DNA of 64,000 nucleotides. Source: a virus. Both the position numbers and the translations under genes were made by a program. Shown here one piece after another: positions 29,348 through 47,077 of this stretch. Every line of letters begins with the position of its first letter. Within the stretch, counting starts at the first letter, position 1. Below the pieces are notes generated by a model, which worked only from the letters and a program-made list of their open reading frames with translations, made no database searches and was not told the origin of the DNA. Location: the IMG/VR virus record IMGVR_UViG_3300036828_000413, positions 7,761-71,760 of that record. One strand, given 5' to 3'.

Positions 29348-30580
29348 CTACTCCACTGGCACGATGGCTTGACCCGGAGGCACCTGCTTCGGAAGCTGGT
29401 CTGGAATTGACTGATCTGGAGCCTTGCCCACGTTCATCGGGGCCGTGTCCTTCAGCGCCCACGGCTGCTTCAAATCGAGCTGGGTCTGGGTCCCGTTGCT
29501 GTTGTCTTGAGTGAATGTAACGGTCTCTATCTTCATCATCATATTCAATGGACACATCGGAGAGTAGACGAACACGTTGTCCCCCGGCCACCACAGATTG
29601 GTGTCATCCCTGAACCAGCCCTGCACTGTTGCCGTTGCATCTATCTGGGGTCCCTCGTGCCACAGCGCCTCGTTCTTGGCCCTGTCCAAGACCTCCTGGA
29701 TGTTCTTGACCGGCTGCTCCGAGGGAGTGATCAGCAGGCTCTTGAGGAAGCCAGTACCACCCCAGCTGGCCTCGAGCTCGCTGGCCTTGGTGCCCCAGTT
29801 GTCGTCGCTGGCCGCCGACTGGGCGACCACCTTGTATTCCTCGTAGGTGTGGTCCTTGTGAAAGACGCACTGCATCTTCTTGATGTTCTGACCCTCGATC
29901 AGCTGGGTGTTCAAAACTGGCATGTGATGGTCGCCGATCGCAAGGAAGTTTCCCCAGCTGTCGCTCCCAAGGATGATCCCTCTCGGCCTGGCTATCCTCT
30001 CGAGGAAGTCCCAGATCGGCTCGCCCGGCTGGTTCTGGAGCTTGTCGAACGGGGTGGCATTCAAACTGCCAACTGGAATTATCTTAGAAGGATACGGGCT
30101 GACCACCTTCTGGGCCACCTGGAGCCAGGTCATGCCGTCGAAGCTGCCACTCTTGGTATTGACGCTGCTCCTGGCCACTGGTGCAGTCGCACTCTTGCCC
30201 TGAATTTCGATCCCGTGCTGGTTGGCCTCGTAGGCCACCTGCCTAGTCTCGATGAAGCCGGCCAGAACATTGACGCCGCCGAGATTGACATAAACTGTTT
30301 CTCCAGGCATGAACTGGAGCTTGTAGAACATCCCAGCTGGGGTATCACGCTCAACGCTCTGGAAGCGAAAGTAAGAGTACGCGTCGTGCCACTTGAGCTG
30401 GACGAATATGCTCTCCCAGTCTTCGAAGTTTATCCCATTGACGATCAGCGTGGCCTGCTCGTAGGGCACTCTGGAGTTGGGGTCTCGAGCAGGGATCGAG
30501 TACTGGGTGACCGGGGGAGCCGGTTCAGTCGTGCCTCCGGTGATGATCACTCTGGGCGGTGCAGTCCCTCCGTCGCTCAT
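29348..30580 (-). CDS. Baseplate hub Mu gp44 (gpP)-like
   Basis: L.VNG..FEDWES, QPGE..WDFLERIAR.RG, TVQGW......W.PG..V.V. Confidence 0.88.
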   Translation of the reverse strand: MSDGGTAPPRVIITGGTTEPAPPVTQYSIPARDPNSRVPYEQATLIVNGINFEDWESIFVQLKWHDAYSYFRFQSVERDTPAGMFYKLQFMPGETVYVNLGGVNVLAGFIETRQVAYEANQHGIEIQGKSATAPVARSSVNTKSGSFDGMTWLQVAQKVVSPYPSKIIPVGSLNATPFDKLQNQPGEPIWDFLERIARPRGIILGSDSWGNFLAIGDHHMPVLNTQLIEGQNIKKMQCVFHKDHTYEEYKVVAQSAASDDNWGTKASELEASWGGTGFLKSLLITPSEQPVKNIQEVLDRAKNEALWHEGPQIDATATVQGWFRDDTNLWWPGDNVFVYSPMCPLNMMMKIETVTFTQDNSNGTQTQLDLKQPWALKDTAPMNVGKAPDQSIPDQLPKQVPPGQAIVPVE

Positions 30581-31248
30581 TGCGACAGTGCCTGGCCGAT
30601 GGGCGGACAGAACGCCGGATGAACCACCTTGTTCTCAGCCCGTATCTCATCGTACCGACTGGCGTCCCCGTAGAGCCTCTGGGAGATGACTAGGGACGGC
30701 AGAGGCTTGGCAAACTGGTATGACAGCATGTAAGGCAGCGGCCTGCCGGTCGCCACCAGGTAGTTAACAATGGCCGCCCTCAGGCCTATGATCGCCTGAT
30801 AGTCCATCGGATCCATGGTGTCGGCGGCCACTTCCTCGGCAGAGTTGAACGGGATCTGGATTTGGTTGATCAAGTCATCGACGTCTTGGCGACTCTTGAA
30901 CGTCATATTCGAGATGATCTTGCCCTCCTGGGCCAGGGCCAGGTGGATGCTCCTGTCCCTGACCATGGTGGCCCCGAGCGACACTGGTCGCTCAGCATCC
31001 AGCAGCACCCTAACCTCCTCCATCTGGGGTAGAGTGGCGCCGGTCTGGCGGACTAGATCGAAACACATGTCCAGGGGAGGACCCATCTGGTCATAGTAGA
31101 GCAGCGAGAGCGCATTCGCCAACGTCCATCCTATCACGACCTTGGCCTGGATGGCCGCTTGGTCCGTTCCAGAGATGCCAATCGACAAATTAGCCAGCGT
31201 CCTCTGGATGATCCCCTCGGCCTCTATGGCGTCTGGCTTGTCCATCAC
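30577..31248 (-). CDS. Mu gpN C-terminal-like protein
   Basis: PLPSLVISQRLYGDASRYDEI..EN.V.HPAF.P. Confidence 0.75.
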   Translation of the reverse strand: MMDKPDAIEAEGIIQRTLANLSIGISGTDQAAIQAKVVIGWTLANALSLLYYDQMGPPLDMCFDLVRQTGATLPQMEEVRVLLDAERPVSLGATMVRDRSIHLALAQEGKIISNMTFKSRQDVDDLINQIQIPFNSAEEVAADTMDPMDYQAIIGLRAAIVNYLVATGRPLPYMLSYQFAKPLPSLVISQRLYGDASRYDEIRAENKVVHPAFCPPIGQALSQ

Positions 31249-31832
31249 TTTCCCCAGTTTCCAAATCGATCATTGAACGTGGCATTCTCCACGGGAGGGT
31301 CTGGCCCAGCCAATCCTCGCTGGGTCTGCTGGCGGAGCGTGTCTGCCGCCGAGTTCAATACGGTATTGGTGTTCTGCGAGGGAGAGAGATATTGGGGAGG
31401 CACACCAAACTCTGAAAATTCTATGTCAAACGTGCAGTAGCCTCCGAACCTGTCCTCCTCCGTCATCCTGTATCTCGTGACGACTACGTTCTCAGATGGC
31501 CTCGTCGAGAAAACTAGCGCACCTGGTCCTGGTTGGTCCAACGCAGTGATCAGAGCGTCCCTGCCGACTCTGTAGTCCACGTTATATAAACCATCTAGGG
31601 TCGGGCCTTCCGCGGTGAATGGGTACGTGATGAAATACGCCCGAACGGTGAAGCTCTTGGCCCTCCTGCCCATGTCCTCTGCGTACGGCAACTCCTTCTT
31701 CGGAAACTCGTGCTCCACTACCCTTCGACCAGTGTCTCTGCTGTTGGCCTCAGTGAAAAACATCGCGCTCCTGAATGAGGCCGTGATCCATGCGTCTCGA
31801 AATGGAAGATGGATGTCCTTGATCGTGCTCAT
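31245..31832 (-). CDS. DNA circularisation protein N-terminal domain (Mu gpN-like)
   Basis: ASFR...F.......GRRVVEHEFPKKE.PYAEDMGRRA. Confidence 0.88.
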   Translation of the reverse strand: MSTIKDIHLPFRDAWITASFRSAMFFTEANSRDTGRRVVEHEFPKKELPYAEDMGRRAKSFTVRAYFITYPFTAEGPTLDGLYNVDYRVGRDALITALDQPGPGALVFSTRPSENVVVTRYRMTEEDRFGGYCTFDIEFSEFGVPPQYLSPSQNTNTVLNSAADTLRQQTQRGLAGPDPPVENATFNDRFGNWGK

Positions 31833-34039
31833 CAGTCGGCCGTTTCTGCAAACGTTGATGGACCGGTCTTGGCCGGAACCATCTGGGTGCTTCGCTCCGG
31901 ACCAGTTGGTTTGAACAATCGCTCACTGCCCAAAGTGGCGTCGCCCCCTCCGCCACCAATGTTCACAGCTACCTTGCCGGTGGCATCTACCTTCACGGTC
32001 TTGATCGATCTTTTATCCACGATGTCTCTTGCCGCCTGAGATGATTCGCCGGCAATGCGATTTGCCTCTGCCAAACGATTAGCCACGCTTTGTGGGTGAC
32101 TCCCAATTGTTGAAAATCTTCTTCCCAATATCCCACCGCGCAGACCTCTGCCGCTTTGCACTGAGCTCTCTGAATCTCTCACAAAAGCATTGACCGAAGC
32201 GTCAATGTCATAGGCATTCCCGCCGGGCACTTGACTGTGGCTGTATTGGAAAACACCAAAGGATCCACCCGGATCACCTAAATTCTTTGCTTTTGGATTA
32301 AATTCAGACTCGGATGCAGCTACGGCAGTCCCAAATTTTGCCCATTCCTCGGCAGAGCCGGTCTTGAACCCAAAGCGAGCGCCGTCTGGAGGAATAGTAC
32401 CAACTAAGTTGGATTTCTTATACGCCGCAAGCAACTTCTGATAAACGCTCCCACCCCTCGTGCCAGCTTTACCACCAACGGCGGCAGCTGGCTCAGGACC
32501 GACGGCAGCTGCTCCAGCCATTGTGGCTGCGGCCGCTTCAGGCGTCTTGGCACCGATCGTGCCCATGGACTTTGCGCCAGTGGTAAAAGGATCAAGTCCG
32601 GGCGCCCCAAGATTGCCCATACCAGAAGAAGATGGAGCAGCTGAAGATGGACCGGTCGATGGACCAGTTGAAGATGGACCAGGACCGGATGATGGACCGG
32701 TCGATGGACCAGATGGACCAGATGGACCAGCTGAAGCTGGAGCGCCGCCACCTCCAGGTGTAGCGCCGCCACCTCCGCCTCCAGGCGGAACGTTGATCCC
32801 CAACTGCTGGGCGGCCAGGTAGTCATTGAGTCGCTTCAACTGGCCAGTATTGTCCTTCATCGTGTTCTTGTATTCTTCATTGTCGTCGGACATCGAAGAA
32901 AGCAGGTGCGTAGCTTTTGCCTCTCCCTCTTCGCCCTTTGTCTTCGGCAGAGCGTCGAGACCGAGTTGCTCACCCAAGCCCTTCTTGTCCGCCTCGCCCT
33001 TGCTGGTGCTCTGGTACAGGTCTGTGATCCACTTCCAGAACTTTATCGTATTCACGCCAGGGATCATGAACGACATGGTATCGAATGTACCCTTGGCGAC
33101 CTGCTTGGTCAGCGGCTTCTCCCACAGCTCGTGCAGGGTCTTGGTCAGAGAGATGGCTAGATGAAGTCCTGTAACAACCACGCCATTCGGCGAGAGCGCG
33201 GACGTCGATATGTCGTCCATCCAGTCGTTCCACTCCTTCTTGAGGTCCTTGATGCCCGTGTAAAATTCTTTCGTTGCAGCAGTTTGGGCATCGATCCTGG
33301 CCCTATCTTCTCCACTCACAGGCTTCAGCTGGACGCCTCGCAGTATCGAGTCGAGTCCCCACTGCTCCAAGAACTTCTTTGTAAACTCAGTGGCATCAGC
33401 CAAGTTGTTATTGGTGTCCTTCATCCTCTCGTTGAAGACGACCTGGGCCTGGGCCATCGCTTTATTCATGGCAAGGATCGGGTCCTGCTCCTTGAGGATG
33501 CTCTGGATGCCGGCCTCCATCTCATCTCTGTGGCGGCCAGCCATATCCAGCAATTTGAGATGTTCAGCGCTGCCGACGCGGCCTATCTGAGCGTAGGCCT
33601 CGTTGAACCTTGCTACGTTCGCATCGGCCTGGTCCGCACCGAGCCCAATCCGATCAAGCTGCTCCTCTATGCTCTTCAAGACCGCAGGATGAACGCCGAA
33701 CACCTTGGCCTTGTTGTTCAGCTCTGTGATCTTGCTCGAGAACTCATTCAGGCCGTGGATACCGGCGATCACCACAGTGCCTAGTGCCGTAACAGCTGCA
33801 CCTGCCGCTCCGAACTTTCCGATGAAGCCGAGCATGGCCTTCTCGCCGCCAGTCGCCAGCTCTTGAAGCTCCTTTATCTGCTTGGCCAGCTCCGCATGGC
33901 CGCGCTTAAACCGCTCAACGTGAGCCTGGGCTGCCCCACCGCCCAACTGAGCCATATGCTGGTGAACAGCTTTAAAACCGGCGGACGCATTGTCCGTCAG
34001 CGTTATAACCAGCCTGAGTTCTTCAGTCTCAGTGGGCAT
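31832..34039 (-). CDS. Tape measure-like protein 2 with lysozyme/SLT-like domain
   Basis: Helical N-terminus paralogous to 34039-36213. G/P/S linker, then AASESEFNP.A.N....GSFGVFQ. Confidence 0.75.
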   Translation of the reverse strand: MPTETEELRLVITLTDNASAGFKAVHQHMAQLGGGAAQAHVERFKRGHAELAKQIKELQELATGGEKAMLGFIGKFGAAGAAVTALGTVVIAGIHGLNEFSSKITELNNKAKVFGVHPAVLKSIEEQLDRIGLGADQADANVARFNEAYAQIGRVGSAEHLKLLDMAGRHRDEMEAGIQSILKEQDPILAMNKAMAQAQVVFNERMKDTNNNLADATEFTKKFLEQWGLDSILRGVQLKPVSGEDRARIDAQTAATKEFYTGIKDLKKEWNDWMDDISTSALSPNGVVVTGLHLAISLTKTLHELWEKPLTKQVAKGTFDTMSFMIPGVNTIKFWKWITDLYQSTSKGEADKKGLGEQLGLDALPKTKGEEGEAKATHLLSSMSDDNEEYKNTMKDNTGQLKRLNDYLAAQQLGINVPPGGGGGGATPGGGGAPASAGPSGPSGPSTGPSSGPGPSSTGPSTGPSSAAPSSSGMGNLGAPGLDPFTTGAKSMGTIGAKTPEAAAATMAGAAAVGPEPAAAVGGKAGTRGGSVYQKLLAAYKKSNLVGTIPPDGARFGFKTGSAEEWAKFGTAVAASESEFNPKAKNLGDPGGSFGVFQYSHSQVPGGNAYDIDASVNAFVRDSESSVQSGRGLRGGILGRRFSTIGSHPQSVANRLAEANRIAGESSQAARDIVDKRSIKTVKVDATGKVAVNIGGGGGDATLGSERLFKPTGPERSTQMVPAKTGPSTFAETAD
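32640..32732 (-). repeat. GATGGACC-based tandem repeat encoding GPSS/GPST linker
   Basis: Repeated gatggacc units on the + strand. Confidence 0.8.
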
Positions 34040-36213
34040 CAGTCGCTCTCGATGGGCATAGTTCTATTTGTCTCAGTACTCTTGAACGCTCCATCACCCT
34101 CCACCTTGACGTCAGAGCCTCTGGGAGCCTTGACGTCTGCGGTCAATTTTCCATTGACTTCAACTTTAGTAGTTCTAACCTCCTTGTCGGTCTTATCCAG
34201 CAAGCCTCGTGCCTCCAATATTTTTTTCTTGTGAGCCGCAGCTTCCGGGGACATAACCTCAAAGTGCATAGGGTCTCCAAAACGACCTCCCCATGAAATT
34301 CCCCTAGCCCAAGCCATCTCCTCTATGTCGGCTGGCATATCGGTCGTGTTACCTCTGAATTCATTTCTCCCAGGATTGACATCGACGGCCGTACCCCAGG
34401 AATGTTCGGACAAGCCTCCGCCTCCACGCTTCTGGCGAACATTCAAACCAGATATATCATTGATCTTGTAGCCTCGATCCAACAAGTCATTGAAGAGCGC
34501 CTTGAACTTTTCTGCACCAGCCGCGTTGACCTGGACCTTTTTTCCGTTCTTCAAGGTGATCCACGTCTGATTAGTTCCTGGCCGACCAAATGCTCCTGTC
34601 TCTGCGTAGTTAAACTCTCCACGCTCTCCCTTGCGACGCTCATATCCACGCGCCACGCCTCCAGCGGCCGTACCCTTTACACGCTCTCCAGTGTCCCCGG
34701 TATCGGGTTCGCTTGGAGCACCTTTGTCATCTACACCACCGCCCTTCCCGCTGCGAGGATGGCTGTCACCAGCTCCATCTCCAGACCCAGGACCAACTCG
34801 ACTACCATTCGGACCCCAATCTCCACCTGCACCGCCACCTCCAAACCCTCCGCCTCCGCCGCCCCCACTGAACCCAGGCAAACCTCCGAGACCCTTCAGC
34901 TCCACATCACCCCGGTCGAGCAACTTGAAATTCTCATTCAACCGCTTCGTTTCCGCCGTATTCTTTTCAATGTTCTTGAGGTAGTCATCGCCCTGTCTCA
35001 TACTGTTGTCGACTTCCCTGCGATCCTCAATGTTCTCAGATCGCCTCATCCACTCCCAACCCTTGCCTATGCTTGGGATTTGATCGCCGACAGTCGAACC
35101 AGGAGCTGGAGCTGACATCAACCCAGCGGATTGTTCAGAGGCCGGCTTTGCCGGAGCGGTTGGAGCGCTGGGCCAACGCTCCTCAAACGTGGCACCACCA
35201 CCCTGATCTCCAATGCCTGTCGCTGCATGCTTGAGCAAATCCACAGTAGTGAGAGCGCCAGATTTTACATTGGTAGGAACCCACGGCTGCTTCCAGAGCT
35301 CGCGAAGCTCCTTGACCAAATCCAGCATGAGGTGGAGACCGGTAACGATCACTCCACCTGAACCCAACAGGGCCGTACTCAAATCAGCTCCAAGCTCCTC
35401 CACCTCATGGCTAAGATCGGAGACTGTTTTCTTGTATTCTGAAGTCGCCTTGGCCCTGGCCTCAAACCGTTTCTTTTCTTCCTCGGAGACTTCTTCGACG
35501 TGACGAAGGACCTTCAGCACCGGGTCCAGCTCCCACAATTTCAGGAAATCGTTCTGGGACTTGATAGCGTCAGCCCGATTACCATCAGTCTCCTTCATTC
35601 TTTCTTCATACACCACATACGACTGGCGGATAATTTCCTGGAGCTTGCCGGCCTGAGTGGTCTGAGCCTCGATGCGCTGAATGCCCTGTTCCATCAAAGT
35701 GCCAAATTGTCCGGCGGCCTTGATCATCTCCATTCGCTTTTCACTGCCGATCCTGTTCACCTGAGCCAGCACGTTGGACAAACCAGCCATGCTCTGCTCT
35801 ACAGTTCCGGCCGAGACCCCAAGCCTGTCATACTGCTCTATCAAACTCTTCAGCTCAGCTGGGTTCATCCCGATGACCTTGGCCTTGTTGGTCAAATCCA
35901 CCACCCTGTCTGCAAACTCCTTCAAGCTGCCCAAGCCTACGAGGATCGAGGCAGCAAAGCCACCCATGGCAGCACCGGCTACGCCAAACTTTCCAATGTA
36001 GCCAGTCAATGCTCTACCGCCGCCCTCAGCTAACTCGCCCAGCTCCTTGATTTGTTTTGCCAGCTCTGACTGTTCTTCCTTCAGCTTGTCCATAGCCGTC
36101 TTGCCAGCTCCAGTGGCAAGCTCTTTAATATCATCACGTATCCTTGAGACGCCCTCTGATGCCTCATTGATCAGAGAGACGCGAAGCTGGAGTTCTTGGA
36201 GCTCGTTTGGCAT
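34039..36213 (-). CDS. Tape measure-like protein 1 with M15 metallopeptidase domain
   Basis: Directly follows the tail chaperone. SEHSWGTAVDVNP...WGGRF.DPMHFE matches the M15 Zn-peptidase pattern. Confidence 0.82.
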   Translation of the reverse strand: MPNELQELQLRVSLINEASEGVSRIRDDIKELATGAGKTAMDKLKEEQSELAKQIKELGELAEGGGRALTGYIGKFGVAGAAMGGFAASILVGLGSLKEFADRVVDLTNKAKVIGMNPAELKSLIEQYDRLGVSAGTVEQSMAGLSNVLAQVNRIGSEKRMEMIKAAGQFGTLMEQGIQRIEAQTTQAGKLQEIIRQSYVVYEERMKETDGNRADAIKSQNDFLKLWELDPVLKVLRHVEEVSEEEKKRFEARAKATSEYKKTVSDLSHEVEELGADLSTALLGSGGVIVTGLHLMLDLVKELRELWKQPWVPTNVKSGALTTVDLLKHAATGIGDQGGGATFEERWPSAPTAPAKPASEQSAGLMSAPAPGSTVGDQIPSIGKGWEWMRRSENIEDRREVDNSMRQGDDYLKNIEKNTAETKRLNENFKLLDRGDVELKGLGGLPGFSGGGGGGGFGGGGAGGDWGPNGSRVGPGSGDGAGDSHPRSGKGGGVDDKGAPSEPDTGDTGERVKGTAAGGVARGYERRKGERGEFNYAETGAFGRPGTNQTWITLKNGKKVQVNAAGAEKFKALFNDLLDRGYKINDISGLNVRQKRGGGGLSEHSWGTAVDVNPGRNEFRGNTTDMPADIEEMAWARGISWGGRFGDPMHFEVMSPEAAAHKKKILEARGLLDKTDKEVRTTKVEVNGKLTADVKAPRGSDVKVEGDGAFKSTETNRTMPIESD

Positions 36214-36874
36214 TATTCTCCCGACTCTATCGCTCGCGTCCTCTCAAGCTGGGCCGTCCTGGATAGGTGAAGCTGAACCTCACTGATGGACATCTCTAGA
36301 AAAGTGCGAGGATCGAGGTGGTAGTAGCTGGCCAGTCGATAACAATCGATGATCATACCGTCGTCGATGACGGTAGTCACCACGCCCGCAGATCTGGTAA
36401 AAAAAATTTTCTCAGGCGATACGCACAGCTGTTCCAGTCACGTGGATCCATCGCCTCTAGCAGGGGCGGGAGGATGCCACTGAGCGCGCCCATGATGTAG
36501 GTCATCTTGCGCTCCTCGATGATGATCTCTCCATCCCAGAGCATCCTGGTCGGATTGCCGATCCGGTTGATCTCGCTCGCCCTCGGCTCTCTGAACGTCA
36601 GGCTGGTGACCTGCTCTCCCTTGTCATTCATGATTGATCTGTACAAGAGTTGTACGGTCACTGGCCACTGGTCGGCACTCTCTCGAATTTCTTTCCTGAG
36701 CTGGTCAGCTTCGCTTATCGGAGGCTCGGGAGTTGGAGCCTCGATCTTCTTTTGTGATGGGAGCGGTTCCTGAGGAATTGCCGATAGCGGAGCCTCAGGC
36801 AGCGGACCCTCCGGTGGAACAAAGCCCTCCCTGATCCGCGGTTGGCCATTTCCCTTGGTCGGTTCTACTGTCAT
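36213..36874 (-). CDS. Tail assembly chaperone, -1 frameshift product (gpGT / E+E' analog)
   Basis: Slippery AAA TTT TTT TTA at 36398-36410. The -1 frame is open (..DCYRLASYYHLDPRTFLEMSISE..) to a TAATG overlap with the tape-measure start. Confidence 0.8.
36377..36874 (-). CDS. Tail assembly chaperone (Mu gp41 / P2 gpE-like)
   Basis: LTFREPR.....L.AMDP.D pattern, between tube and tape measure. Confidence 0.85.
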   Translation of the reverse strand: MTVEPTKGNGQPRIREGFVPPEGPLPEAPLSAIPQEPLPSQKKIEAPTPEPPISEADQLRKEIRESADQWPVTVQLLYRSIMNDKGEQVTSLTFREPRASEINRIGNPTRMLWDGEIIIEERKMTYIMGALSGILPPLLEAMDPRDWNSCAYRLRKFFLPDLRAW

Positions 36875-40501: not shown

Positions 40502-41145
40502 CAGACCTCAAGCCTCACATAGTGCATGAGCAGGCTGTTGGCCGCTCCGCCGATGATCCCCTGGATCGTAAGACCCTTGCCCTGCTGGGTGGCGTCAAAG
40601 TACATCACGCGGCTGTCCTTGTGGGATATGCTTCGTATCCCTATCACGGCCAGCCTGTTCATCAGGGCCTGACCCTCTCGCACCAGCAGGGCCGCCGCCT
40701 GCTTGAGTGCGGGCGGCGTCTCGTCAGGTAACAGATAGCCTCCCCAGTAGGTCACCTTGACCGGCTCATCATTGGTTGAGAGCAGCTCAATCTTTCCAGA
40801 CTTCTCCTCGATCTCGTAGGTCGATGGGTCGAGCACGGATCCAGTTGGGCTCTCCACCGTTAGCGATGCGCTGAGGTCGAGGGGATAGTGGCTCAAGAAC
40901 ATTCGCGTCATCGTGTTGGTAGCGTCGTAGTTCACGCATCGCCAGATCTCGCTGACCTCCTCGTAGGCAAACACCCTGTTGCAGACGGTAGCGATCACGT
41001 CCGAGTATTGGGTTATGTACTCCTGGAGCACCTGGTCCTGGGTGGTGTCCGTAGGATGGATGCCGATCAAGACCTTCAGGTCAGCCAGCGAGATCAAGTC
41101 GTAGTTGTTTGCCGGAGTGAGAACCTTTATGACCCGATCAGCCAC
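40501..41145 (-). CDS. Head-tail adaptor (gp6/gp15-like)
   Basis: L.SLADLK..I.....D..L...I...CNR.F, V.Y.GGY...P.ALKQA. Confidence 0.8.
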   Translation of the reverse strand: MADRVIKVLTPANNYDLISLADLKVLIGIHPTDTTQDQVLQEYITQYSDVIATVCNRVFAYEEVSEIWRCVNYDATNTMTRMFLSHYPLDLSASLTVESPTGSVLDPSTYEIEEKSGKIELLSTNDEPVKVTYWGGYLLPDETPPALKQAAALLVREGQALMNRLAVIGIRSISHKDSRVMYFDATQQGKGLTIQGIIGGAANSLLMHYVRLEV

Positions 41146-42439
41146 GTCCAGTCTCCTCATTGTATTGCTCGAAGAGCGATCGGATGCAGACCGGCTCGAC
41201 CTCCATTCCGTTGGATAGAACTGGAGTGATCGTATAGGTCTGCCTGTCCAGCCTCCACGTCTTGATCACAGGCGCGTCCCTGCCAGGCGCTCCTGGACTA
41301 CCATTCGGACCATGGTCGCCTCGGTCTCCCTTCGGTCCCGGCTTGCCAGGCTTGCCGTGAGATGCAATCAGCTGCCAGTTGTCTCCCGGACACGATCCTG
41401 GATCGTCACACTTGGCGATGAAGCTGGAGCCATTGAGCGCCACGATGTTCAACTGGTCATAGTGCCAGTCTTCGCGATAGGTCCCACACACGATCGGCAC
41501 TGGAGCGTTGCGTCCACCGGCCGCGATGCATGTCCAGTCCTCATGCGGAGGGGCATGGACCGTGTCTCGCTTGGCCTGGTACGTGCTACCCTCGAGAGAA
41601 ACCAGATCGCTCTGGTAGTTGACTTGGCCTCTTGCGAACGGCCTGACGTCCTTCAAGACCCCCGGCGCACCATCCTTGCCGGCCTGGCCGTCCTTGCCTG
41701 TGAGGCCTTGCTCGCCCTTCTCGCCTCTTTCGCCTTGTTGACCGCAATCGCCTTGTTCACCCTTCTCACCCTTTTCGCCATCCTTGCCTCCAATTCCATT
41801 CTCGCCTCGCTCACCACGCTCACCCTGGGGACCAGAATCACCCTTCTCGCCCCGCTCCCCCGATGGCCCGCCGGGACCAAGATCGCCAGCTGGACCGACA
41901 TCTCCCCGGTCGCCCTTCTCACCCTGCTCGCCACGCTCGCCGTTGAGCCCATTCTCTCCGGGCTCTCCGTGGTCACCGGGGTCGCCCTTCTCGCCGACCT
42001 CGCCCTTTTCTCCACGCTCACCGCTCTGGCCAATCTCTCCGCGCTCGCCCTGTTCTCCGCGCTCACCCTGCTGTCCACGCCATCCCTGCTCTCCACGCTC
42101 GCCCTGCGTACCTCGCTCACCCTGGGGTCCTGGCTCACCTCGCTCTCCCTTTTCTCCCGGAGGACCAATTGGACCAGGTTCTCCGTCTCTCCCGTCCTTC
42201 AACTCGGCGAGCCTGGAGTTAATCCGCTCGTTCAAGGTAGCAACCTGGGTCTCGAGCTTGGCAATGATCGCGCCCGACTGGGCCTCCATCAGCCTGCAGT
42301 GACGCTCCCACTCCGCGTCCTTGCGATCGAGTATCTCGGCGAGGGCTATTCGCCACGCATCAAGCAGAGTTTCTTCGCCGCTGTCCAACTCGCTCAGTGA
42401 GGCGGAGAAGGTTTCTGACTTCCCGTTGGATATCATCAT
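41138..42439 (-). CDS. Collagen-like repeat protein
   Basis: N-terminal coiled coil, long G-E-R/K triplet run, short aromatic C-terminal modules. Confidence 0.85.
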   Translation of the reverse strand: MMISNGKSETFSASLSELDSGEETLLDAWRIALAEILDRKDAEWERHCRLMEAQSGAIIAKLETQVATLNERINSRLAELKDGRDGEPGPIGPPGEKGERGEPGPQGERGTQGERGEQGWRGQQGERGEQGERGEIGQSGERGEKGEVGEKGDPGDHGEPGENGLNGERGEQGEKGDRGDVGPAGDLGPGGPSGERGEKGDSGPQGERGERGENGIGGKDGEKGEKGEQGDCGQQGERGEKGEQGLTGKDGQAGKDGAPGVLKDVRPFARGQVNYQSDLVSLEGSTYQAKRDTVHAPPHEDWTCIAAGGRNAPVPIVCGTYREDWHYDQLNIVALNGSSFIAKCDDPGSCPGDNWQLIASHGKPGKPGPKGDRGDHGPNGSPGAPGRDAPVIKTWRLDRQTYTITPVLSNGMEVEPVCIRSLFEQYNEETGRG

Positions 42440-43781
42440 GGTTACCCTTCTCGGGTGGAGTAGGCTTGGCGTCCCCCGGAGGTGGCTTCGGCTCAGGACC
42501 AGCTGAGGGAGGAGCCGGAGGAGCCGCAGGGATCGCCCCAGCCGCACTCAACGGAACGACCTGTTGCTGCACCCTTGGCTCATCCCCAAACTTGACGTCC
42601 GGCAAACCCTCAGTGTTGCGGGCCTCATTGGGCGCTAAGATGCCACCCTGAACGCCCCTGGCCAGGGCGTCAATTCTTTCCTTCATGGCGGAACGCAGCA
42701 GCGCAGCGGTATCGAACTCCACATACTCATCCGGCTGGCCCTTGAGCTGGAAGAGCAGTCCAAACGCCTCTTCAACGTGGTTGAGGCAGAAGCCCAGGCC
42801 ACTGGCAATCCAGCTCTGCATCAGGAGCTCAGAGCTTCCATAGGGAGCGCCGCCTATACCCAAGATCTGGAGCGGTACTCGAAAGGCCAGCGCGATGTGC
42901 TCATTAGTCAACTTCATCATCTCTGCGGTCGCGGCGTCCTTGCCTCCAACGGCCCACGGCTGGACCTTCAATCCCGCCGTCAGGATCGGCGTACCACCCT
43001 GGTGGATGCCCTGGACCTGCTCGTTCCATCTGTCTCGAAGGGCCTGGACCTGGTCCTTGTCCAACACGAGGTCGGTAGACAAGACGGCGGACGGCCTCGC
43101 CTCGTTCATATAGAACGACTGCTGTTGCTTCGAGATCGCTCCAGCGACCGCCATGTCTCCATAGGCCGCCAGGATCGGGCTCTCACCAACCAGAGGGTTT
43201 GGAAACCGGCGGTTCACGTGGAGCTTGATGTGGAGCACGTCGCGCATGGGCACGACGAGATACTCTTCCTTGAACCTCTTGGCCACTATGTCGTTTCCGG
43301 CCAACCAATAAAATACGTCTCCGGTCTCGGCCAGGCGGGGATAGGACATCTCCGGATGCATCGGATGGAGCTCATCGATCTCATAGCGATCGTTGCGGAG
43401 CGCCAGAGCGTACGCATTTCCGGTCAGATAGAGCTGGCGAACTATGTTCAGAAGGAAGTCACTGATCGATTGGTAATCGTTGGGATGTCTCAAAGTGCGG
43501 GCGAGTGCCGAGTTCTTCACCCGGTCTCGCCCGCCCTTAGTGTTCAGTCTCCAATGGTCCCCTGGACACATGGCGACCGTCTGGGCGTAGGCTGAGACAC
43601 ACGCCTCAACCATGGCCGAGCAGGTCGTCATGAACAGAGGATCGTAGCCCTGCTGCCACCAATTGATCCCCGCGCCCGAGGGCAACCAGCCTCCCGTGAT
43701 GGGAAGATAGTATGGCCCAGGACGAAAGCCGCCCTCGACGGCCTTCAAGACGGACCTGAATTTGGCGATCAATCCGGCCAT
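42360..43781 (-). CDS. Portal protein (HK97 family)
   Basis: V.ACV..A..VA, PN.YQ..F...L.L.GNAY, G.SPI, IA.AFRVP..LG, PNEAR..EGLP. Confidence 0.93.
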   Translation of the reverse strand: MAGLIAKFRSVLKAVEGGFRPGPYYLPITGGWLPSGAGINWWQQGYDPLFMTTCSAMVEACVSAYAQTVAMCPGDHWRLNTKGGRDRVKNSALARTLRHPNDYQSISDFLLNIVRQLYLTGNAYALALRNDRYEIDELHPMHPEMSYPRLAETGDVFYWLAGNDIVAKRFKEEYLVVPMRDVLHIKLHVNRRFPNPLVGESPILAAYGDMAVAGAISKQQQSFYMNEARPSAVLSTDLVLDKDQVQALRDRWNEQVQGIHQGGTPILTAGLKVQPWAVGGKDAATAEMMKLTNEHIALAFRVPLQILGIGGAPYGSSELLMQSWIASGLGFCLNHVEEAFGLLFQLKGQPDEYVEFDTAALLRSAMKERIDALARGVQGGILAPNEARNTEGLPDVKFGDEPRVQQQVVPLSAAGAIPAAPPAPPSAGPEPKPPPGDAKPTPPEKGNHDDIQREVRNLLRLTERVGQRRRNSA

Positions 43782-44178: not shown

Positions 44179-46422
44179 TCACCAAGTGACGCTCTGGGTC
44201 CAGGCCACCGTGCCAGCCCGGCGCTGCAGCCAGTTCAGAGGCAGCACCATTCTCAGGGCCAGCGAGTCGGTCTGGAACAGCGAGCGCTGCGGAGTCGCAA
44301 CGACGCCCGGAGAGCCAGCGACCAGGTCGGTCGGACTGGTGTCCTCCATGTGCAGCGTGGCCTGGTCGCTCATCTCCATTCTCGGAGCGTCACCACCGAC
44401 GACCACGAAGTCGGCCGCATCCACCAAGACCATCGTCTTTGCGGGAACGACCGCGGAGTCGATGAACGGGATGGTGGCCAGAGACCCTCCGCGGATCTCA
44501 TCCCTGAACGGGAAGATGCCCGTATTGGCGGCTGAGAGCAGAGACGCGCGGAGCATGTCCGTCTGGTTGACCAGCCAGACCAGGTTGCGGACGTTGCCAT
44601 AGGTCGCTGTACTGATCGCGTTGATCAGGCCAACGATGTCTCCAACCAGCGCCGCAATGCCGCCACCTGCGGTTGCCGTAGTGGCCGCCACGGCATTGAG
44701 CAGGCCGGCTGGCCTGATCGTGGTCGCAGGGTTCGCGTCGATCAACACCGTGTCGATCGCCACCGTGGTGTCCTGCTGGATGGCCTCTCGCAGGAGACCC
44801 TCAATCGCCGGGATGGAGTGCTCGTCCATCTCCTTGGTCCAAGTCGTAATGACCGCCATCTTCTTCGGAGTAAGCGTCTGGCTGGTGAACGCACCCTGCC
44901 TGACCGGGATGGCCAGACCCTCACCCACGAACGAGCCAGCCAGGCTGGGCGTGCGGGAGCGAGTTGGAATGATGATCTTTCCAGTCAGTCCGAAGCTCAG
45001 GCTCAGTCCTTTCGGCGCAAGCCGGGTGAGGATGCCCTTGGGCATCAGCAGCGGCATGAGCGGAGCGAACGTGGTCTGGACGAGCTCCTGGGCCCAGCCC
45101 GCTACGGTAGTCATGGCCGGGGCTGAGGCTGAACGGAGCACGATGTCAGCAATCAGCTTGACCGCGTCATCCTTGTACTCAGGATAGCGCGCGGCGATCT
45201 TGGCCAGAGTGTCCTCAAGGTTGCTGCCCCAGCCCTTGGAGAAGTAGGCCAGGGTGCCAGCCTTTACGAACAGATCGAGCGGATCGAACTCCTTCGTTCG
45301 GTTGTGGATCACCGTTGGTGCCTGCACCCGCTCGGTGCGCTCTCCGGTGGAGACAACGAGCGACCGTCCACCGCGGACGGTCTCCTGGACAGACCGCGCC
45401 AACAGCTTCTCACTGTCGACGAGGGTGTCGTGGGTCCGCTCAAGTTGGACGATGTCCTCCCTGAGCTTGCCGATGGCCTCCAGCTCAGTGCCGCTTACGT
45501 TGCTGTCATCCATCTTGTCGATATGGTCTTGAAGAACATCACGCTTGGAGGTAATTGCGGCCTCCAGGTCCATGATGCGTTGAGCGAGGCTAGACATTTG
45601 TCTGCCCTTTCCATTGCCACGATTATTCCTGGCGTGCCCGCCGTTGATCGCCTTCCTGATCGTACGGTCTCTTTTGCCTTGCCCGGCGAACACCATGTCG
45701 ATCGTCTCAGACGAGATACCCAGGGACTTTGCTACGGCGAGTGCGTTTGGGTTTGCCGGTACGGCAACCACACTGGTCTCGATCAGTTCGCACTTGGTGT
45801 AGACGCTGCCCCAGTCAGTTCCTTCTCTGTCCTTTCGCTCCTTTGGTCTGAACCCAACGGAGACTGCGCGGAGGATGTCTGCGTCGATCAGTCTCCTGAT
45901 CTCATCGATCCTCTGGCTGGTACCCTCCTTGGCCAGCTCGAGGTGACCGCGTAACTGCTTGTTCTCAATGCGGACGTTCGCCCACTTTCCAATCGGAAAA
46001 GTGCTGTTGTGGCCAAACAGCGCGATCGGGTTCTTCTTGAACTCCCGGAGGTCCCACCCGTCGGACATGATCACGTCATCCATCCGGTCCGGCGTCTCGT
46101 CCGAGAGGATGAACTCCATCCCGCTGACCTGCGAGGCGTGGGTCTTGTACTTCAGATCACTGGCCTTTCTGTCCTCCCAGAGCATCTGGCAGACGTCCTC
46201 GTTGCCGATCTCATCGACGCAGTCGGATATGAACTCATCCTGCTCGTCGTCCTCGTAGTCACCTGGGTCAGGCACCTGCTTGTCCTTGTTTCGCCAGATG
46301 TCCATGCAGATGGCCACGGCCTGGTCCTGCGGACGCTTGTCCGGACCGGTGCCAACCATCTCTGGCACGCACCTGGCCATGAAGTCACTCTGGCTCTCGC
46401 CCTTGTGGGGTTTGATTGGCAT
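44179..46422 (-). CDS. Fused prohead protease - major capsid protein (HK97 fold)
   Basis: DR.DD.I...G...KNPI.LF.H and AVSVGF..E.SVV.VPANP protease motifs, coiled-coil delta domain, then capsid FVGEG..IP...SLFQ. Confidence 0.93.
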   Translation of the reverse strand: MPIKPHKGESQSDFMARCVPEMVGTGPDKRPQDQAVAICMDIWRNKDKQVPDPGDYEDDEQDEFISDCVDEIGNEDVCQMLWEDRKASDLKYKTHASQVSGMEFILSDETPDRMDDVIMSDGWDLREFKKNPIALFGHNSTFPIGKWANVRIENKQLRGHLELAKEGTSQRIDEIRRLIDADILRAVSVGFRPKERKDREGTDWGSVYTKCELIETSVVAVPANPNALAVAKSLGISSETIDMVFAGQGKRDRTIRKAINGGHARNNRGNGKGRQMSSLAQRIMDLEAAITSKRDVLQDHIDKMDDSNVSGTELEAIGKLREDIVQLERTHDTLVDSEKLLARSVQETVRGGRSLVVSTGERTERVQAPTVIHNRTKEFDPLDLFVKAGTLAYFSKGWGSNLEDTLAKIAARYPEYKDDAVKLIADIVLRSASAPAMTTVAGWAQELVQTTFAPLMPLLMPKGILTRLAPKGLSLSFGLTGKIIIPTRSRTPSLAGSFVGEGLAIPVRQGAFTSQTLTPKKMAVITTWTKEMDEHSIPAIEGLLREAIQQDTTVAIDTVLIDANPATTIRPAGLLNAVAATTATAGGGIAALVGDIVGLINAISTATYGNVRNLVWLVNQTDMLRASLLSAANTGIFPFRDEIRGGSLATIPFIDSAVVPAKTMVLVDAADFVVVGGDAPRMEMSDQATLHMEDTSPTDLVAGSPGVVATPQRSLFQTDSLALRMVLPLNWLQRRAGTVAWTQSVTW

Positions 46423-46435
46423 CGTATTGTCCTCC

Positions 46436-47077
46436 TCACTTTCGCATGAACGCCAGCCAAGAGCCCTCCACGGACTTGATCGGCCAGCCATCCGCGACTA
46501 GACGCTCGAGCGCCCTGGTCACCTCCACGGCTGGGTTGCCGTAGTCGTGCCAAACAATAATCCCACCCCGCCTGACCAGCTCCTCAGCCAGGTAGCTCTC
46601 GTGGGTCACGGCCTCATCGCTGTGGTCTCCGTCTATGAACACGGCGTCACACGGCTCGAGGTCATCTCCGCTCAGTCTGATCGACGGAGAGGTGAGCAGG
46701 AAGAAGCGAGGGTCATCCGCCGCATATGCCCCAGCCCTCTCCGGGACCTCGGAGAGTTGGCACGAGAGCGTAGTTATGTGGTCCGGACCCACGTCGACCC
46801 CAATGTACCGCTCCAGGGTCTCCACGCACTCCAGCACCCGCTTGGCCGTGATCCCAATGTTGCAGCCAAACTCAACCATGACTCTCGGCGAGACACTCCT
46901 GACCAGATCGACCAAGATTGAGGTCTCGCTGCCGTTGAGATACTTGCTGAAGTGACTCGCCTTGACCTGGGTTGGTTTTATCGAGACCTGGCTCAGCGCT
47001 GATCCAGTGCGCTGAGCCAGTCTCCGTCCACGACTTGGCGACACAATCTGACGTTGTCGTACCATCTCACACCCCAC
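46436..47077 (-). CDS. Class I SAM methyltransferase (Methyltransf_24-like); start uncertain
   Basis: MVEFGCNIG, YIGVD, DAVFIDGDHS..AV, GGIIVWHDY. Confidence 0.85.
   Translation of the reverse strand: MGCEMVRQRQIVSPSRGRRLAQRTGSALSQVSIKPTQVKASHFSKYLNGSETSILVDLVRSVSPRVMVEFGCNIGITAKRVLECVETLERYIGVDVGPDHITTLSCQLSEVPERAGAYAADDPRFFLLTSPSIRLSGDDLEPCDAVFIDGDHSDEAVTHESYLAEELVRRGGIIVWHDYGNPAVEVTRALERLVADGWPIKSVEGSWLAFMRK

What the first reader, a model, noticed from the sequence alone, without database searches (positions are those of the whole stretch)
31832..36213. Two tandem paralogous tape-measure genes carrying different cell-wall hydrolases
Seen: two similar-sized proteins (724 and 735 aa) with homologous N-termini (MP.E..EL.L...L...AS.G; ELAKQIKEL.ELA.GG..A..G.IGKFG.AGAA; L.NKAKV.G..PA.LKS), a shared NT...KRLN junction, Gly/Pro/Ser linkers and related C-termini (DK....T.KV...GK). 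The cargo differs: an M15 Zn-peptidase (SEHSWG.AVD...DPMHFE) versus a lysozyme/SLT-like domain (ESEFNP...GSFGVFQ), the latter looking AT-richer. Long-tailed phages normally have one tape-measure gene. Inference: a hetero-oligomeric tape measure delivering both a peptide-cutting and a glycan-cutting enzyme, or two tail types, forming a polymorphic cargo slot.
Basis: partly seen in the sequence, partly recalled or inferred. Interest (0 to 1): 0.78.

Follow-up and report, generated by a model that had tools for sequence, protein, structure and literature searches.

The report
Two tape measures, two wall enzymes
An uncultured phage with a contractile tail keeps two old copies of the normally single tail "tape-measure" gene, one carrying a peptide-cutting and the other a sugar-chain-cutting cell-wall enzyme, and its relatives keep the same gene pair while swapping the enzymes.

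Summary
Two adjacent, translationally coupled minus-strand genes (724 and 735 aa) lie between a frameshifting tail chaperone and Mu-type baseplate genes. They share 39% identity over their first 327 residues (E 1e-72), a junction motif and a C-terminal tail. Copy A carries an M15_4 zinc peptidase with its metal ligands intact. Copy B carries a lysozyme-fold domain with an invariant Glu-Ser (best solved match Z 12.2) that falls below every Pfam cut-off.

The pair is one old duplication. All 16 loci of the clade, the window included, keep both genes. On the tree A-type and B-type form sister clades. Both evolve under purifying selection (dN/dS 0.06-0.08) and diverge in step (Mantel r 0.96). Cargo is swapped as a cassette in both genes. 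All 16 A-type copies carry peptidase-type cargo. Nine of the 12 B-type copies with a complete cargo carry glycan-cutter-type cargo, and the other three are unassigned. Some single-gene relatives carry both enzyme types on one chain.

Whether the two proteins sit in the same tail is an inference and was not tested. My boldest reading is a three-plus-three hexamer. Six literature searches found no description of this arrangement. This scan has noted tandem tape-measure paralogues before, on other, unrelated DNA.

The parts
36377..36874 (-). Tail assembly chaperone (165 aa), short form
   Evidence: Pfam Phage_TAC_7, 27.8 bits (cut-off 25); phrog_166 tail protein
36398..36404 (-). Slippery heptamer T TTT TTA near the end of the chaperone gene. 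A -1 shift here reads into the 56-aa ORF.
   Evidence: Read directly from the sequence. The 56-aa ORF lies in the -1 frame. The shift itself was not shown.
36213..36383 (-). 56-aa ORF in the -1 frame, the likely extension of the long chaperone form (G/GT or E/E' type)
   Evidence: phrog_32181 E 3e-4
34039..36213 (-). Tape-measure paralogue A (724 aa), upstream copy with N-terminal signature L-Q-E-L-Q-L-R-V
   Evidence: (phrog_9570 and phrog_2276 tape measure, E 1e-9 and 3e-6)
35254..36213 (-). A: conserved N-domain (aa 1-320), including a hydrophobic 19-mer at aa 76-94
   Evidence: 39% identity to B; dN/dS 0.06-0.08; Kyte-Doolittle mean 1.80
34936..34962 (-). A: junction motif N-T-A-E-T-K-R-L-N (aa 418-426)
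   Evidence: Invariant and nearly invariant columns of A1
34255..34572 (-). A: M15_4 / LAS-type zinc peptidase cargo (aa 548-653), with ligands H604, D611 and H650
   Evidence: Pfam PF13539, 40.3 bits; invariant residues; phrog_1768 endolysin E 1e-11
34048..34212 (-). A: conserved C-terminal tail (about aa 668-722), close to the form seen in single-copy relatives
   Evidence: 49.4 bits against a profile of single-copy relatives
31832..34039 (-). Tape-measure paralogue B (735 aa), downstream copy with N-terminal signature E-E-L-R-L-V-I
   Evidence: phrog_2013 lytic tail protein E 6e-5
33080..34039 (-). B: conserved N-domain (aa 1-320), including a hydrophobic 19-mer at aa 76-94
   Evidence: Kyte-Doolittle mean 1.89
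32825..32851 (-). B: junction motif N-T-G-Q-L-K-R-L-N (aa 397-405)
32018..32455 (-). B: lysozyme-fold cargo (aa 529-674), with presumed catalytic E577 followed by S578 and a G-V-F-Q motif at 595-598
31868..32032 (-). B: C-terminal tail (about aa 670-724), diverged from the form in single-copy relatives
   Evidence: 27.5 bits against a profile of single-copy relatives
30577..31832 (-). Two ORFs (195 and 223 aa) that match the N- and C-halves of a Mu gp43-type baseplate hub protein, directly downstream of B
   Evidence: Pfam DNA_circ_N 69 bits; phrog_184 positions 8-150 and 280-403 of 411

Best explanation
These are two paralogous tape-measure proteins of a Mu-type contractile tail. They come from one old gene duplication that a whole phage clade has kept.

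Each protein keeps the same family frame. It has an N-domain of about 320 residues with a hydrophobic stretch, a short junction motif, a glycine-rich linker, a cargo slot and a conserved C-terminal tail. The duplication divided the labour. The upstream copy (A) always carries an enzyme that cuts the peptide stems of the cell wall, here an M15_4 zinc peptidase. The downstream copy (B) carries an enzyme of a glycan-strand-cutting fold, here a lysozyme-like domain with a single catalytic glutamate. In both genes the linker and cargo behave as an exchangeable cassette that recombination moves between diverged backbones. All of this is shown.

The next steps are inferred. Both proteins bind the one chaperone pair encoded upstream and are built into the lumen of the same tail. 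On contraction they are expelled into the periplasm, where the two enzymes open the wall together ahead of the DNA.
For: Position: the genes lie between a TAC_7 chaperone with a T TTT TTA slippery site and Mu gp43-48-type baseplate genes.

Paralogy: 39% identity, E 1e-72.

Retention: of 60 related viral loci, 15 plus the window hold an A-type gene followed by a B-type gene. On the tree the A-types form one clade (16 upstream rows plus L045, support 98). The B-types form its sister clade (16 rows, support 99). The joint clade has support 96.

Selection: dN/dS of the N-domains is 0.064-0.081 for A and 0.065-0.069 for B against the two nearest loci.

Co-divergence: Mantel r is 0.959, reached by 0 of 5000 permutations, and mean distances are 0.461 and 0.459.

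Cassette exchange: identity to L007 and L008 is 90-96% up to about aa 445, 10-30% across the cargo, and 63-100% in the tail. Against L003 the backbone is 50-66% identical but the M15 cargo is 80-90% identical. Linker and cargo have low GC3.

Division of labour:
- A-type, 16 of 16 peptidase-type: 4 M15-type, 7 CHAP-type, 3 YkuD-type, 2 YkuD plus M15.
- YkuD-type fold: AF2 pLDDT 84.9; the top 20 matches are all L,D-transpeptidase folds, Z up to 7.0.
- B-type, 12 with complete cargo: 2 lysozyme-fold, 6 Hydrolase_2-like (ESM Atlas lead, 0.93), 1 PF18013, 3 unassigned.
- One further B-type protein from a metagenome carries GH24.
- None of my seven cargo-class profiles occurs in both gene types.

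Single-gene relatives with a peptidase and a glycan cutter on one chain: 5 of 19 firmly single loci, plus P0008, P0010, P0011, P0012, P0014 and P0018.

Enzyme integrity: H604, D611 and H650 in A. In B, E577-S578 are invariant, the profile aligns to the catalytic stretch of C-type lysozyme at E 7e-4, and the best fold match is DslA at Z 12.2, rmsd 2.9 over 135 residues.
Against: No data on virions, expression or activity exist for this uncultured phage, so co-assembly is pure inference.

Three of the 12 B-type cargos (one class, present in the window's three nearest relatives) could not be assigned to any fold. The only lead is a weak tblastn match, E 2e-3 to 7e-3, to Yersinia-phage virion proteins. 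One of these is annotated as a lytic-transglycosylase-domain protein, and Pfam finds nothing in it.

Several cargo assignments fall below curated cut-offs:
- CHAP in L005 and L014: Pfam E 2-4e-3; TIGR02594 49-53 bits against 70.55.
- The five CHAP2-type cargos have no direct Pfam hit.
- The Hydrolase_2 reading rests on one language-model look-up.
- The B cargo misses every Pfam cut-off, and Foldseek against the PDB gave no match at E <= 0.001 (best 0.064).

Doubts on the evolutionary story. Of the 19 firmly single loci, 8 show only one recognised cargo class and 6 show none, so the two-cargo ancestor is not established. The three loci that hold other, separate duplications (L027, L056, L059) do not show the same peptidase/glycanase split. 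dS is near saturation (0.7-1.0). The tree used the quick method.
Confidence: 0.65

Rival explanations
1. Two kinds of tail. Each virion is built around only A or only B, so a burst yields a mixed population with either a peptidase-armed or a glycanase-armed tail. This would hedge against differences in the host wall.
For: Each protein has the complete family frame, with N-domain, junction and C-tail, and could in principle serve alone. The N-domains are of like length, so both would give the same tail length.
Against: The clade shows a strict complementary split of cargo types, and 16 of 16 loci retain both genes. This fits joint action better than alternatives, because single-gene relatives put both enzyme types in one particle. 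The two ends have diverged reciprocally. The C-tail is more ancestral in A in 11 of 11 loci. The N-domain is more ancestral in B in 15 of 16. That suggests non-equivalent roles and argues against interchangeable ones. The genes are translationally coupled.
Confidence: 0.2
2. Only one copy is the true length-setting tape measure. The other has become an accessory ejected or tip-associated wall-degrading protein that reuses the tape-measure frame to be loaded into the tail, or a non-virion lysin.
For: B's C-tail has diverged from the family norm (27.5 bits against 49.4). A's first residues have diverged from the family signature. No other wall hydrolase family was found among the 70 window ORFs scanned with Pfam.
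Against: Both keep the whole N-domain under equal constraint, with dN/dS 0.06-0.08 and mean distances 0.461 against 0.459. Both keep the junction motif and the hydrophobic stretch. Neither has a signal for a different location.
Confidence: 0.1
3. A recent, redundant duplicate on its way to decay, or an assembly artefact.
For: Nothing beyond the general rule that long-tailed phages have one tape-measure gene.
Against: The paralogues are only 39% identical. The same arrangement stands on 15 other independently assembled contigs. Both copies are intact and under purifying selection.
Confidence: 0.03

Closest known systems
Single-gene tape-measure proteins with embedded wall hydrolases: mycobacteriophage TM4 Tmp (PMC1796659, seen only as a search listing and as a cited reference) and phiCbK gp95 with a CHAP domain (PMC3556154, passages read)
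   Same: A tape-measure frame carries a peptidoglycan hydrolase that is thought to act after ejection from the tail. Many single-gene members of the window's own family do this, some with two enzymes on one chain.
   Different: Here the gene is duplicated and the two enzyme types are allotted to separate paralogues. A whole clade keeps this arrangement.
Anabaena myophage A-1(L): tape measure gp13 and baseplate hub gp15 (PMC10966104, passages read; PDB 8kea)
   Same: A contractile tail delivers a glycan-cutting and a peptide-cutting activity together. The lysozyme domain of 8kea chain A matches the B cargo model at Z 7.1.
   Different: In A-1(L) both activities sit on one hub protein outside the tube lumen and the tape measure is a single gene. 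Here they ride on two tape-measure paralogues.
Pseudomonas myophage P7-1 tape measure gp82 (bioRxiv 10.1101/2025.11.26.690771, passages read)
   Same: It is a contractile-tail tape measure with a putative lysozyme-like segment. The paper reports six copies in the lumen, with only three C-termini forming the cork at the tail tip.
   Different: It is one gene, so one polypeptide must fill both kinds of position. No sequence similarity to the window proteins was tested.
Bdellovibrio Bd0314 DslA (PDB 6ta9) and family-1 lytic transglycosylases (MltE, MltC, Slt70, phiKZ gp144)
   Same: They share the fold of the B cargo. DslA gives Z 12.2, rmsd 2.9 A, 135 residues. The transglycosylases give Z 7.1-8.2. 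The Glu-Ser and G-x-x-Q motifs match.
   Different: Identity is only 12-19%, and Pfam SLT is below its cut-off. The residue aligned to the second catalytic Asp of C-type lysozyme is Ser (my reading of the alignment). Hydrolase or lytic transglycosylase chemistry therefore remains undecided.
Tandem tape-measure paralogues noted earlier by this scan on other DNA (e1-6112669, e1-5906333, e1-5915717, e1-1960707, e1-5875042, e1-6155574)
   Same: Two or more old, intact, adjacent tape-measure copies, several with different wall hydrolases.
   Different: They are other, unrelated phage lineages. Sequence and place look-ups found no look-alike of this window in the scan. Those notes are unchecked. The peptidase/glycanase split across a 16-locus clade is specific to this report.

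Membership tests
Phage tail tape-measure protein | Gene lies directly after the tail assembly chaperone pair (two forms made by a -1 frameshift) and before the baseplate or hub genes | tested here: met
   TAC_7 chaperone, T TTT TTA site and a -1 frame ORF upstream. Mu gp43- to gp48-type genes downstream.
Phage tail tape-measure protein | Sequence match to curated tape-measure models | tested here: inconclusive
   No Pfam TMP model passes in A or B. In A, PHROG tape-measure families match at E 1.3e-9 (phrog_9570) and 2.7e-6 (phrog_2276). In B only phrog_2013 'lytic tail protein' matches, E 5.9e-5. Relatives hit TMP_2, TMP_3 and PhageMin_Tail below cut-off, and one (P0025) hits PhageMin_Tail above it.
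Phage tail tape-measure protein | Protein fills the tail tube lumen and its length sets tail length | not testable with these tools
   Uncultured phage; no virion data.
Peptidase_M15_4 / LAS zinc peptidases (cargo of A) | Pfam model above its gathering score | tested here: met
   PF13539, 40.3 bits against 25, aa 597-653.
Peptidase_M15_4 / LAS zinc peptidases (cargo of A) | Metal ligands His-x6-Asp and a downstream His (motif recalled from knowledge of LAS enzymes) | tested here: met
   H604, D611 and H650 (and D647) are invariant in 6 of 6 aligned cargos.
Transglycosylase SLT, PF01464 (cargo of B) | Pfam model above its gathering score | tested here: not met
   14.7 bits against 21.3. SLT_3 scores 15.0 against 27 and Phage_lysozyme2 13.1 against 28.2. 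B is therefore not filed as a member of PF01464.
Lysozyme-like superfamily (cargo of B) | Lysozyme-type fold | tested here: met
   AF2 pLDDT 91.3. The eight chains at Z >= 8 are DslA, two fungal muramidases, four lytic transglycosylases (MltF, MltE, MltC and the entry 5o2n) and one GH124 cellulase. DslA is the best: Z 12.2, rmsd 2.9 A, 135 aligned. Foldseek alone was weak, best E 0.064.
Lysozyme-like superfamily (cargo of B) | Catalytic glutamate at the end of the first core helix | tested here: met
   E577 is invariant in 29 sequences. It aligns with Glu35 of human lysozyme in the profile match, E 7e-4 (the residue number of lysozyme is recalled).
Mu-type contractile tail module | Sheath, tube, gp43 (DNA_circ_N), gp44/P, gp45, gp46, gp47/J and gp48 homologues in that order | tested here: met
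   Pfam hits above cut-off for each, except that gp44's last two domains are below it.

The most novel reading that the evidence does not exclude
The tail lumen holds a three-plus-three hexamer of the two paralogues.

In single-gene contractile-tail phages, six tape-measure chains fill the tube but only three C-termini plug the tail tip. One polypeptide must therefore fill two non-equivalent positions (P7-1 and A-1(L)). In this clade gene duplication would have resolved that six-to-three mismatch. One paralogue specialises for the tip-plugging position and the other for the free position. That would explain four observations:
- the two ends diverged reciprocally;
- both copies are always kept;
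- both evolve at the same rate;
- each copy can carry its own enzyme, halving the globular load per chain in a narrow lumen.
Probability: 0.3. Interest if true: 0.8.

Novelty: new variant of a known kind. Interest (0 to 1): 0.62.

Why it matters
The tape measure is the textbook single-copy ruler of long phage tails. A clade that has kept two diverged copies for a long time, under equal constraint and with complementary enzymes, implies one of two things. Either the tail core can be built from two different proteins, or one phage makes two kinds of tail.

It also gives a natural system for three open questions:
- how six chains meet a three-fold tail tip;
- how folded enzymes are packed into and expelled from the tube;
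- how far wall-degrading cargo can be exchanged.

The cassette borders seen here (glycine-rich linker upstream, conserved C-tail downstream) show where nature swaps such cargo. The cargo set includes domains that no curated family covers. These are a new lysozyme-fold family of 188 clusters, a YkuD-like peptidase class and one unassigned class.

Tried and rejected
Complex prediction: A 1-320 with B 1-320, each with a 15-row alignment, gave ipSAE 0.00 and 0.01 against a mark of 0.32. That is no answer either way, and the controls were not run.

Phage collection: tblastn of B found no match. A matched only through its M15 domain, in 92 records.

PDB sequence searches: phmmer of A and B gave nothing for B and only glycine-linker noise for A. 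Profiles of four relatives' cargo classes gave nothing or linker noise.

Cargo classes: hhalign between cargo classes aligned only linkers or gave nothing. NCBIfam gave only sub-cut-off TIGR02594. The unassigned B-type class of L005, L007 and L008 stayed unassigned after ESM Atlas, tblastn, Pfam and hhalign.

Genome and metagenome scans:
- The first genome-contig scan found nothing.
- A DNA pattern scan then found 14 loci: 10 Bradyrhizobium, 1 Pseudolabrys and 3 proteobacterial MAGs (two labelled Alphaproteobacteria). All show one N-domain within 2-kb flanks. This makes only a weak host hint for the window's phage.
- The metagenome scan added one short locus.
- The Pfam YkuD model found nothing in the window's own record.

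Literature: searches with the phrases listed found no paper that describes two paralogous tape-measure genes. The passages read in PMC3556154, PMC3447690, PMC8407745, PMC2147016, PMC7302621 and PMC3271669 concern other things. Subscription journals and supplements were not searched.

Rejected: recent redundancy or an assembly artefact (see rivals).
Full report
WHAT IS THERE

The window is most of a 71,760-base IMG/VR virus record, estimated 96% complete. Two genes lie on the minus strand at 34039..36213 (724 aa, called A here) and 31832..34039 (735 aa, called B). Each stop overlaps the next start by one base. This holds from the small ORF upstream of A through to the gene after B (coordinates).

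Upstream lie the following:
- a sheath gene, with Pfam Phage_sheath_1 and Phage_sheath_1C;
- a tube gene (Tail_tube, 102 bits);
- a TAC_7 tail chaperone;
- a T TTT TTA heptamer near the chaperone's end, at 36398..36404, followed by a 56-aa ORF in the -1 frame.

That last feature is the usual two-form chaperone that precedes a tape-measure gene. Downstream lie homologues of Mu gp43 (split into two ORFs), gp44, gp45, gp46, gp47 and gp48. A and B therefore occupy exactly the tape-measure position of a Mu-type contractile tail.

A and B are 39% identical over their first 327 residues, E 1e-72. An alignment with nine database relatives shows a common frame. It has a conserved N-domain, a junction motif (N418 and N426 invariant), glycine-rich linkers, a variable middle and a conserved C-terminal tail. 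BLASTP misses the tail similarity. A profile made only from single-copy relatives finds it in both, at 49.4 bits in A and 27.5 bits in B. Both proteins have a hydrophobic 19-mer at residues 76-94.

THE TWO CARGOS

A carries Pfam Peptidase_M15_4 above its cut-off (40.3 bits against 25). H604, D611, D647 and H650 are invariant in six aligned cargos of this type.

B's cargo passes no Pfam cut-off. SLT, SLT_3 and Phage_lysozyme2 all score weakly. An exhaustive search nevertheless found 188 clusters at E <= 0.001. Most are embedded in long tape-measure-like proteins next to CHAP, Amidase_2, M23, M15_4 or VanY domains. In 29 sequences E577, S578, G595 and Q598 are invariant. The profile aligns this stretch to the catalytic region of human lysozyme, E 7e-4.

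The AlphaFold2 model is confident, with pLDDT 91.3. The full structural scan puts Bdellovibrio DslA first (Z 12.2, rmsd 2.9 A, 135 residues). Muramidases and lytic transglycosylases follow, and the rest of the list is lysozyme-superfamily. Foldseek against the PDB was weak, best E 0.064. Against viral models the best row was a mycobacteriophage tape measure, E 6e-4. I file B's cargo under the lysozyme-like superfamily and not under Pfam SLT.

AN OLD DUPLICATION KEPT BY A CLADE

A scan of IMG/VR returned 60 related loci. Profiles of the N-domain, junction and C-tail sort them as follows:
- 15 loci show two adjacent full-frame genes of the A-then-B kind. In four of these the downstream gene is cut by the contig end.
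- L027, L056 and L059 also show two adjacent genes, of another kind.
- L045 has the upstream gene broken into two frames, and the contig ends just after it.
- 41 loci show one N-domain. Of these, 19 are firmly single (complete gene, at least 1 kb on both sides). The other 22 are cut too short to tell.

A maximum-likelihood tree of 78 N-domains was built with the quick method and SH-aLRT support. Two partial rows were left out. All 16 downstream copies form one clade (support 99). All 16 upstream copies plus L045 form its sister clade (98). The two join at 96. The two subtrees show the same groupings.

The two L027 copies are each other's sisters (100), so that duplication is separate. L056 and L059 sit elsewhere on long branches that the tool flags as unsafe.

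N-terminal signatures are fixed within each type. Distances among A copies and among B copies over 15 loci correlate at r = 0.959, reached by 0 of 5000 permutations. The means are 0.461 and 0.459. dN/dS of the N-domains against the two nearest loci is 0.064-0.081 for A and 0.065-0.069 for B, although dS is high at 0.7-1.0. Both copies are therefore inherited together, intact and equally constrained.

CARGO IS A SWAPPABLE CASSETTE

Against L007 and L008, whose N-domains are up to 91% identical to the window's:
- A is 90-96% identical up to about residue 445, 10-30% across the cargo and 63-100% in the tail.
- B against L007 is 83-100% up to about residue 420, 6-13% across the cargo and 83% in the tail (L008's B gene is cut by the contig end before the tail).

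Against L003 the reverse holds. The backbone is 50-66% identical but the M15 cargo is 80-90% identical.

A metagenome protein 81% identical to B carries GH24 lysozyme in the slot. Third-position GC drops from 0.70-0.76 in B's N-terminal two-fifths to 0.35 in the linker and 0.445 in the cargo. A shows a milder drop.

DIVISION OF LABOUR

I built profiles of seven cargo classes from the loci and ran them over all family members. No class occurs in both gene types.

Upstream copies:
- M15-type in the window, L003 and L004, with Pfam above cut-off.
- M15-type in L007, shown only by BLASTP to the window's domain: 27% identity, E 8e-7, motifs aligned.
- CHAP-type in L005 and L014, with Pfam CHAP and TIGR02594 both below cut-off.
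- CHAP-type in L006, L009, L010, L013 and L019. These have no direct Pfam hit, but the same profile covers Pfam CHAP above cut-off in P0010 and P0014.
- A new class in L008, L011 and L015. It also occurs with an M15-like domain in L021 and L044.

For that new class I gathered 24 relatives. An alignment of 23 sequences, the L008 domain and 22 of these relatives, shows an invariant His and Gly-Cys. The model has pLDDT 84.9. Its top 20 structural matches are all L,D-transpeptidase-fold proteins (Tlde1a Z 7.0, Pgp2 6.5), after which Z falls to 3.1. That Z is modest. The uniformity of the list and the motif make the case.

Downstream copies with a complete cargo (12):
- lysozyme-fold in the window and L021;
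- a class in L003, L006, L010, L014, L015 and L019 whose nearest ESM Atlas clusters carry PF07486 Hydrolase_2 (score 0.93, 24 of 30 hits; a lead, not a test);
- PF18013 in L011, 64.5 bits;
- an unassigned class in L005, L007 and L008.

In total, 16 of 16 upstream copies carry peptide-stem enzymes. Nine of 12 downstream copies carry glycan-cutter-type domains on evidence of varying strength, and three are unknown.

WHERE THE SPLIT MAY COME FROM

Several single-gene relatives carry one enzyme of each kind on the same chain:
- CHAP-type with Hydrolase_2-like in L030, L035, L041, L043, L057 and P0014;
- the reverse order, Hydrolase_2-like (a weak hit) then CHAP-type, in P0008;
- lysozyme-fold with M15-type in L048;
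- M15-type with Hydrolase_2-like in L055 and P0011;
- CHAP with Glucosaminidase in P0010;
- GH24 with CHAP-type in P0012;
- PF18013 with CHAP in P0018.

This suggests a two-enzyme ancestor whose functions were parcelled out after duplication. Among the 19 firmly single loci only five show both kinds, eight show one and six show none with my incomplete profile set. The ancestor therefore remains an inference.

RECIPROCAL DIVERGENCE AND THE BOLDEST READING

I scored the clade against profiles of single-copy relatives. The N-domain scores higher in B in 15 of 16 loci, and the exception is a truncated gene. The C-tail scores higher in A in 11 of 11 complete pairs. Each paralogue has thus kept one ancestral end.

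Two structural papers, of which I read passages, report six tape-measure chains in the lumen of contractile tails but only three ordered C-termini at the tip. These are P7-1 (bioRxiv 10.1101/2025.11.26.690771) and A-1(L) (PMC10966104). A three-plus-three hexamer of A and B, with each paralogue fitted to one of the two positions, would account for the reciprocal divergence, the obligate co-retention and the equal rates. Nothing here tests it. The one complex prediction gave no answer.

COMPARISON AND NOVELTY

Tape measures with built-in wall hydrolases are known. A passage on phiCbK gp95 was read, and the TM4 paper was seen only as a listing. A-1(L) puts a glycanase and a peptidase on its hub. 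Six full-text searches found no paper on two paralogous tape-measure genes. Subscription journals and supplements were not covered.

This scan's own earlier notes report tandem tape-measure paralogues in other, unrelated phages. One note says that doubled genes are already known in print. I could not trace that statement.

I therefore rate this as a new variant of a known kind. Its added value is a 16-locus clade with a clean peptidase/glycanase split, documented cassette exchange and a testable structural hypothesis.

Noticed in passing
window 36398..36404 and 36213..36383 (- strand): The tail chaperone gene ends with a T TTT TTA heptamer, and a 56-aa ORF follows in the -1 frame. This is a likely programmed frameshift giving a long chaperone form.
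   Followed up: partly
window 30577..31832 (- strand): The Mu gp43-type baseplate hub (DNA_circ_N family) is encoded as two separate overlapping ORFs. They match the N-terminal and C-terminal parts of phrog_184 (positions 8-150 and 280-403 of 411).
   Followed up: no
window 41138..42547 (- strand): A 469-aa protein with three collagen triple-helix repeat stretches (Pfam Collagen, 117 bits) sits between the head-tail connector genes and the portal gene.
   Followed up: no
window 44179..46491 (- strand): A 770-aa protein joins a prohead serine protease (Peptidase_S78) and a major capsid domain (Phage_capsid) in one reading frame.
   Followed up: no
TMP-A aa 473 and TMP-B aa 482; loci L003-L062: Short boundary motifs stand 20-60 residues before cargo domains. 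A V-G-P-G-(T/S)-G-x-G-A-G-like motif occurs in 6 of 19 upstream copies and 25 of 59 single or database proteins, often between two cargos. An L-D-x-F-T-x-G motif occurs in 9 of 19 downstream copies. They may be recombination joints or processing sites.
   Followed up: partly
L027, L056, L059: Tandem tape-measure genes also occur outside the main clade. L027 is a separate duplication (its two copies are sisters, support 100). L056 and L059 sit on long branches. These pairs do not show the peptidase/glycanase split.
   Followed up: partly
whole window: Among the 70 ORFs scanned with Pfam, the only wall-hydrolase family found is the M15_4 domain of TMP-A. No separate endolysin was recognised. The first 7,760 bases of the record lie outside the window and were not scanned.
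   Followed up: no
L045:5104-8266: The upstream tape-measure gene of this contig is split into two overlapping frames, while L021 and L044 have the same gene intact. This is a frameshift or a sequencing error.
   Followed up: no
L063-L076: Single-gene members of the family are prophage genes in Bradyrhizobium (10 of 14 loci), Pseudolabrys and other proteobacterial MAGs (two labelled Alphaproteobacteria). This is a hint at the host range of the wider family.
   Followed up: partly
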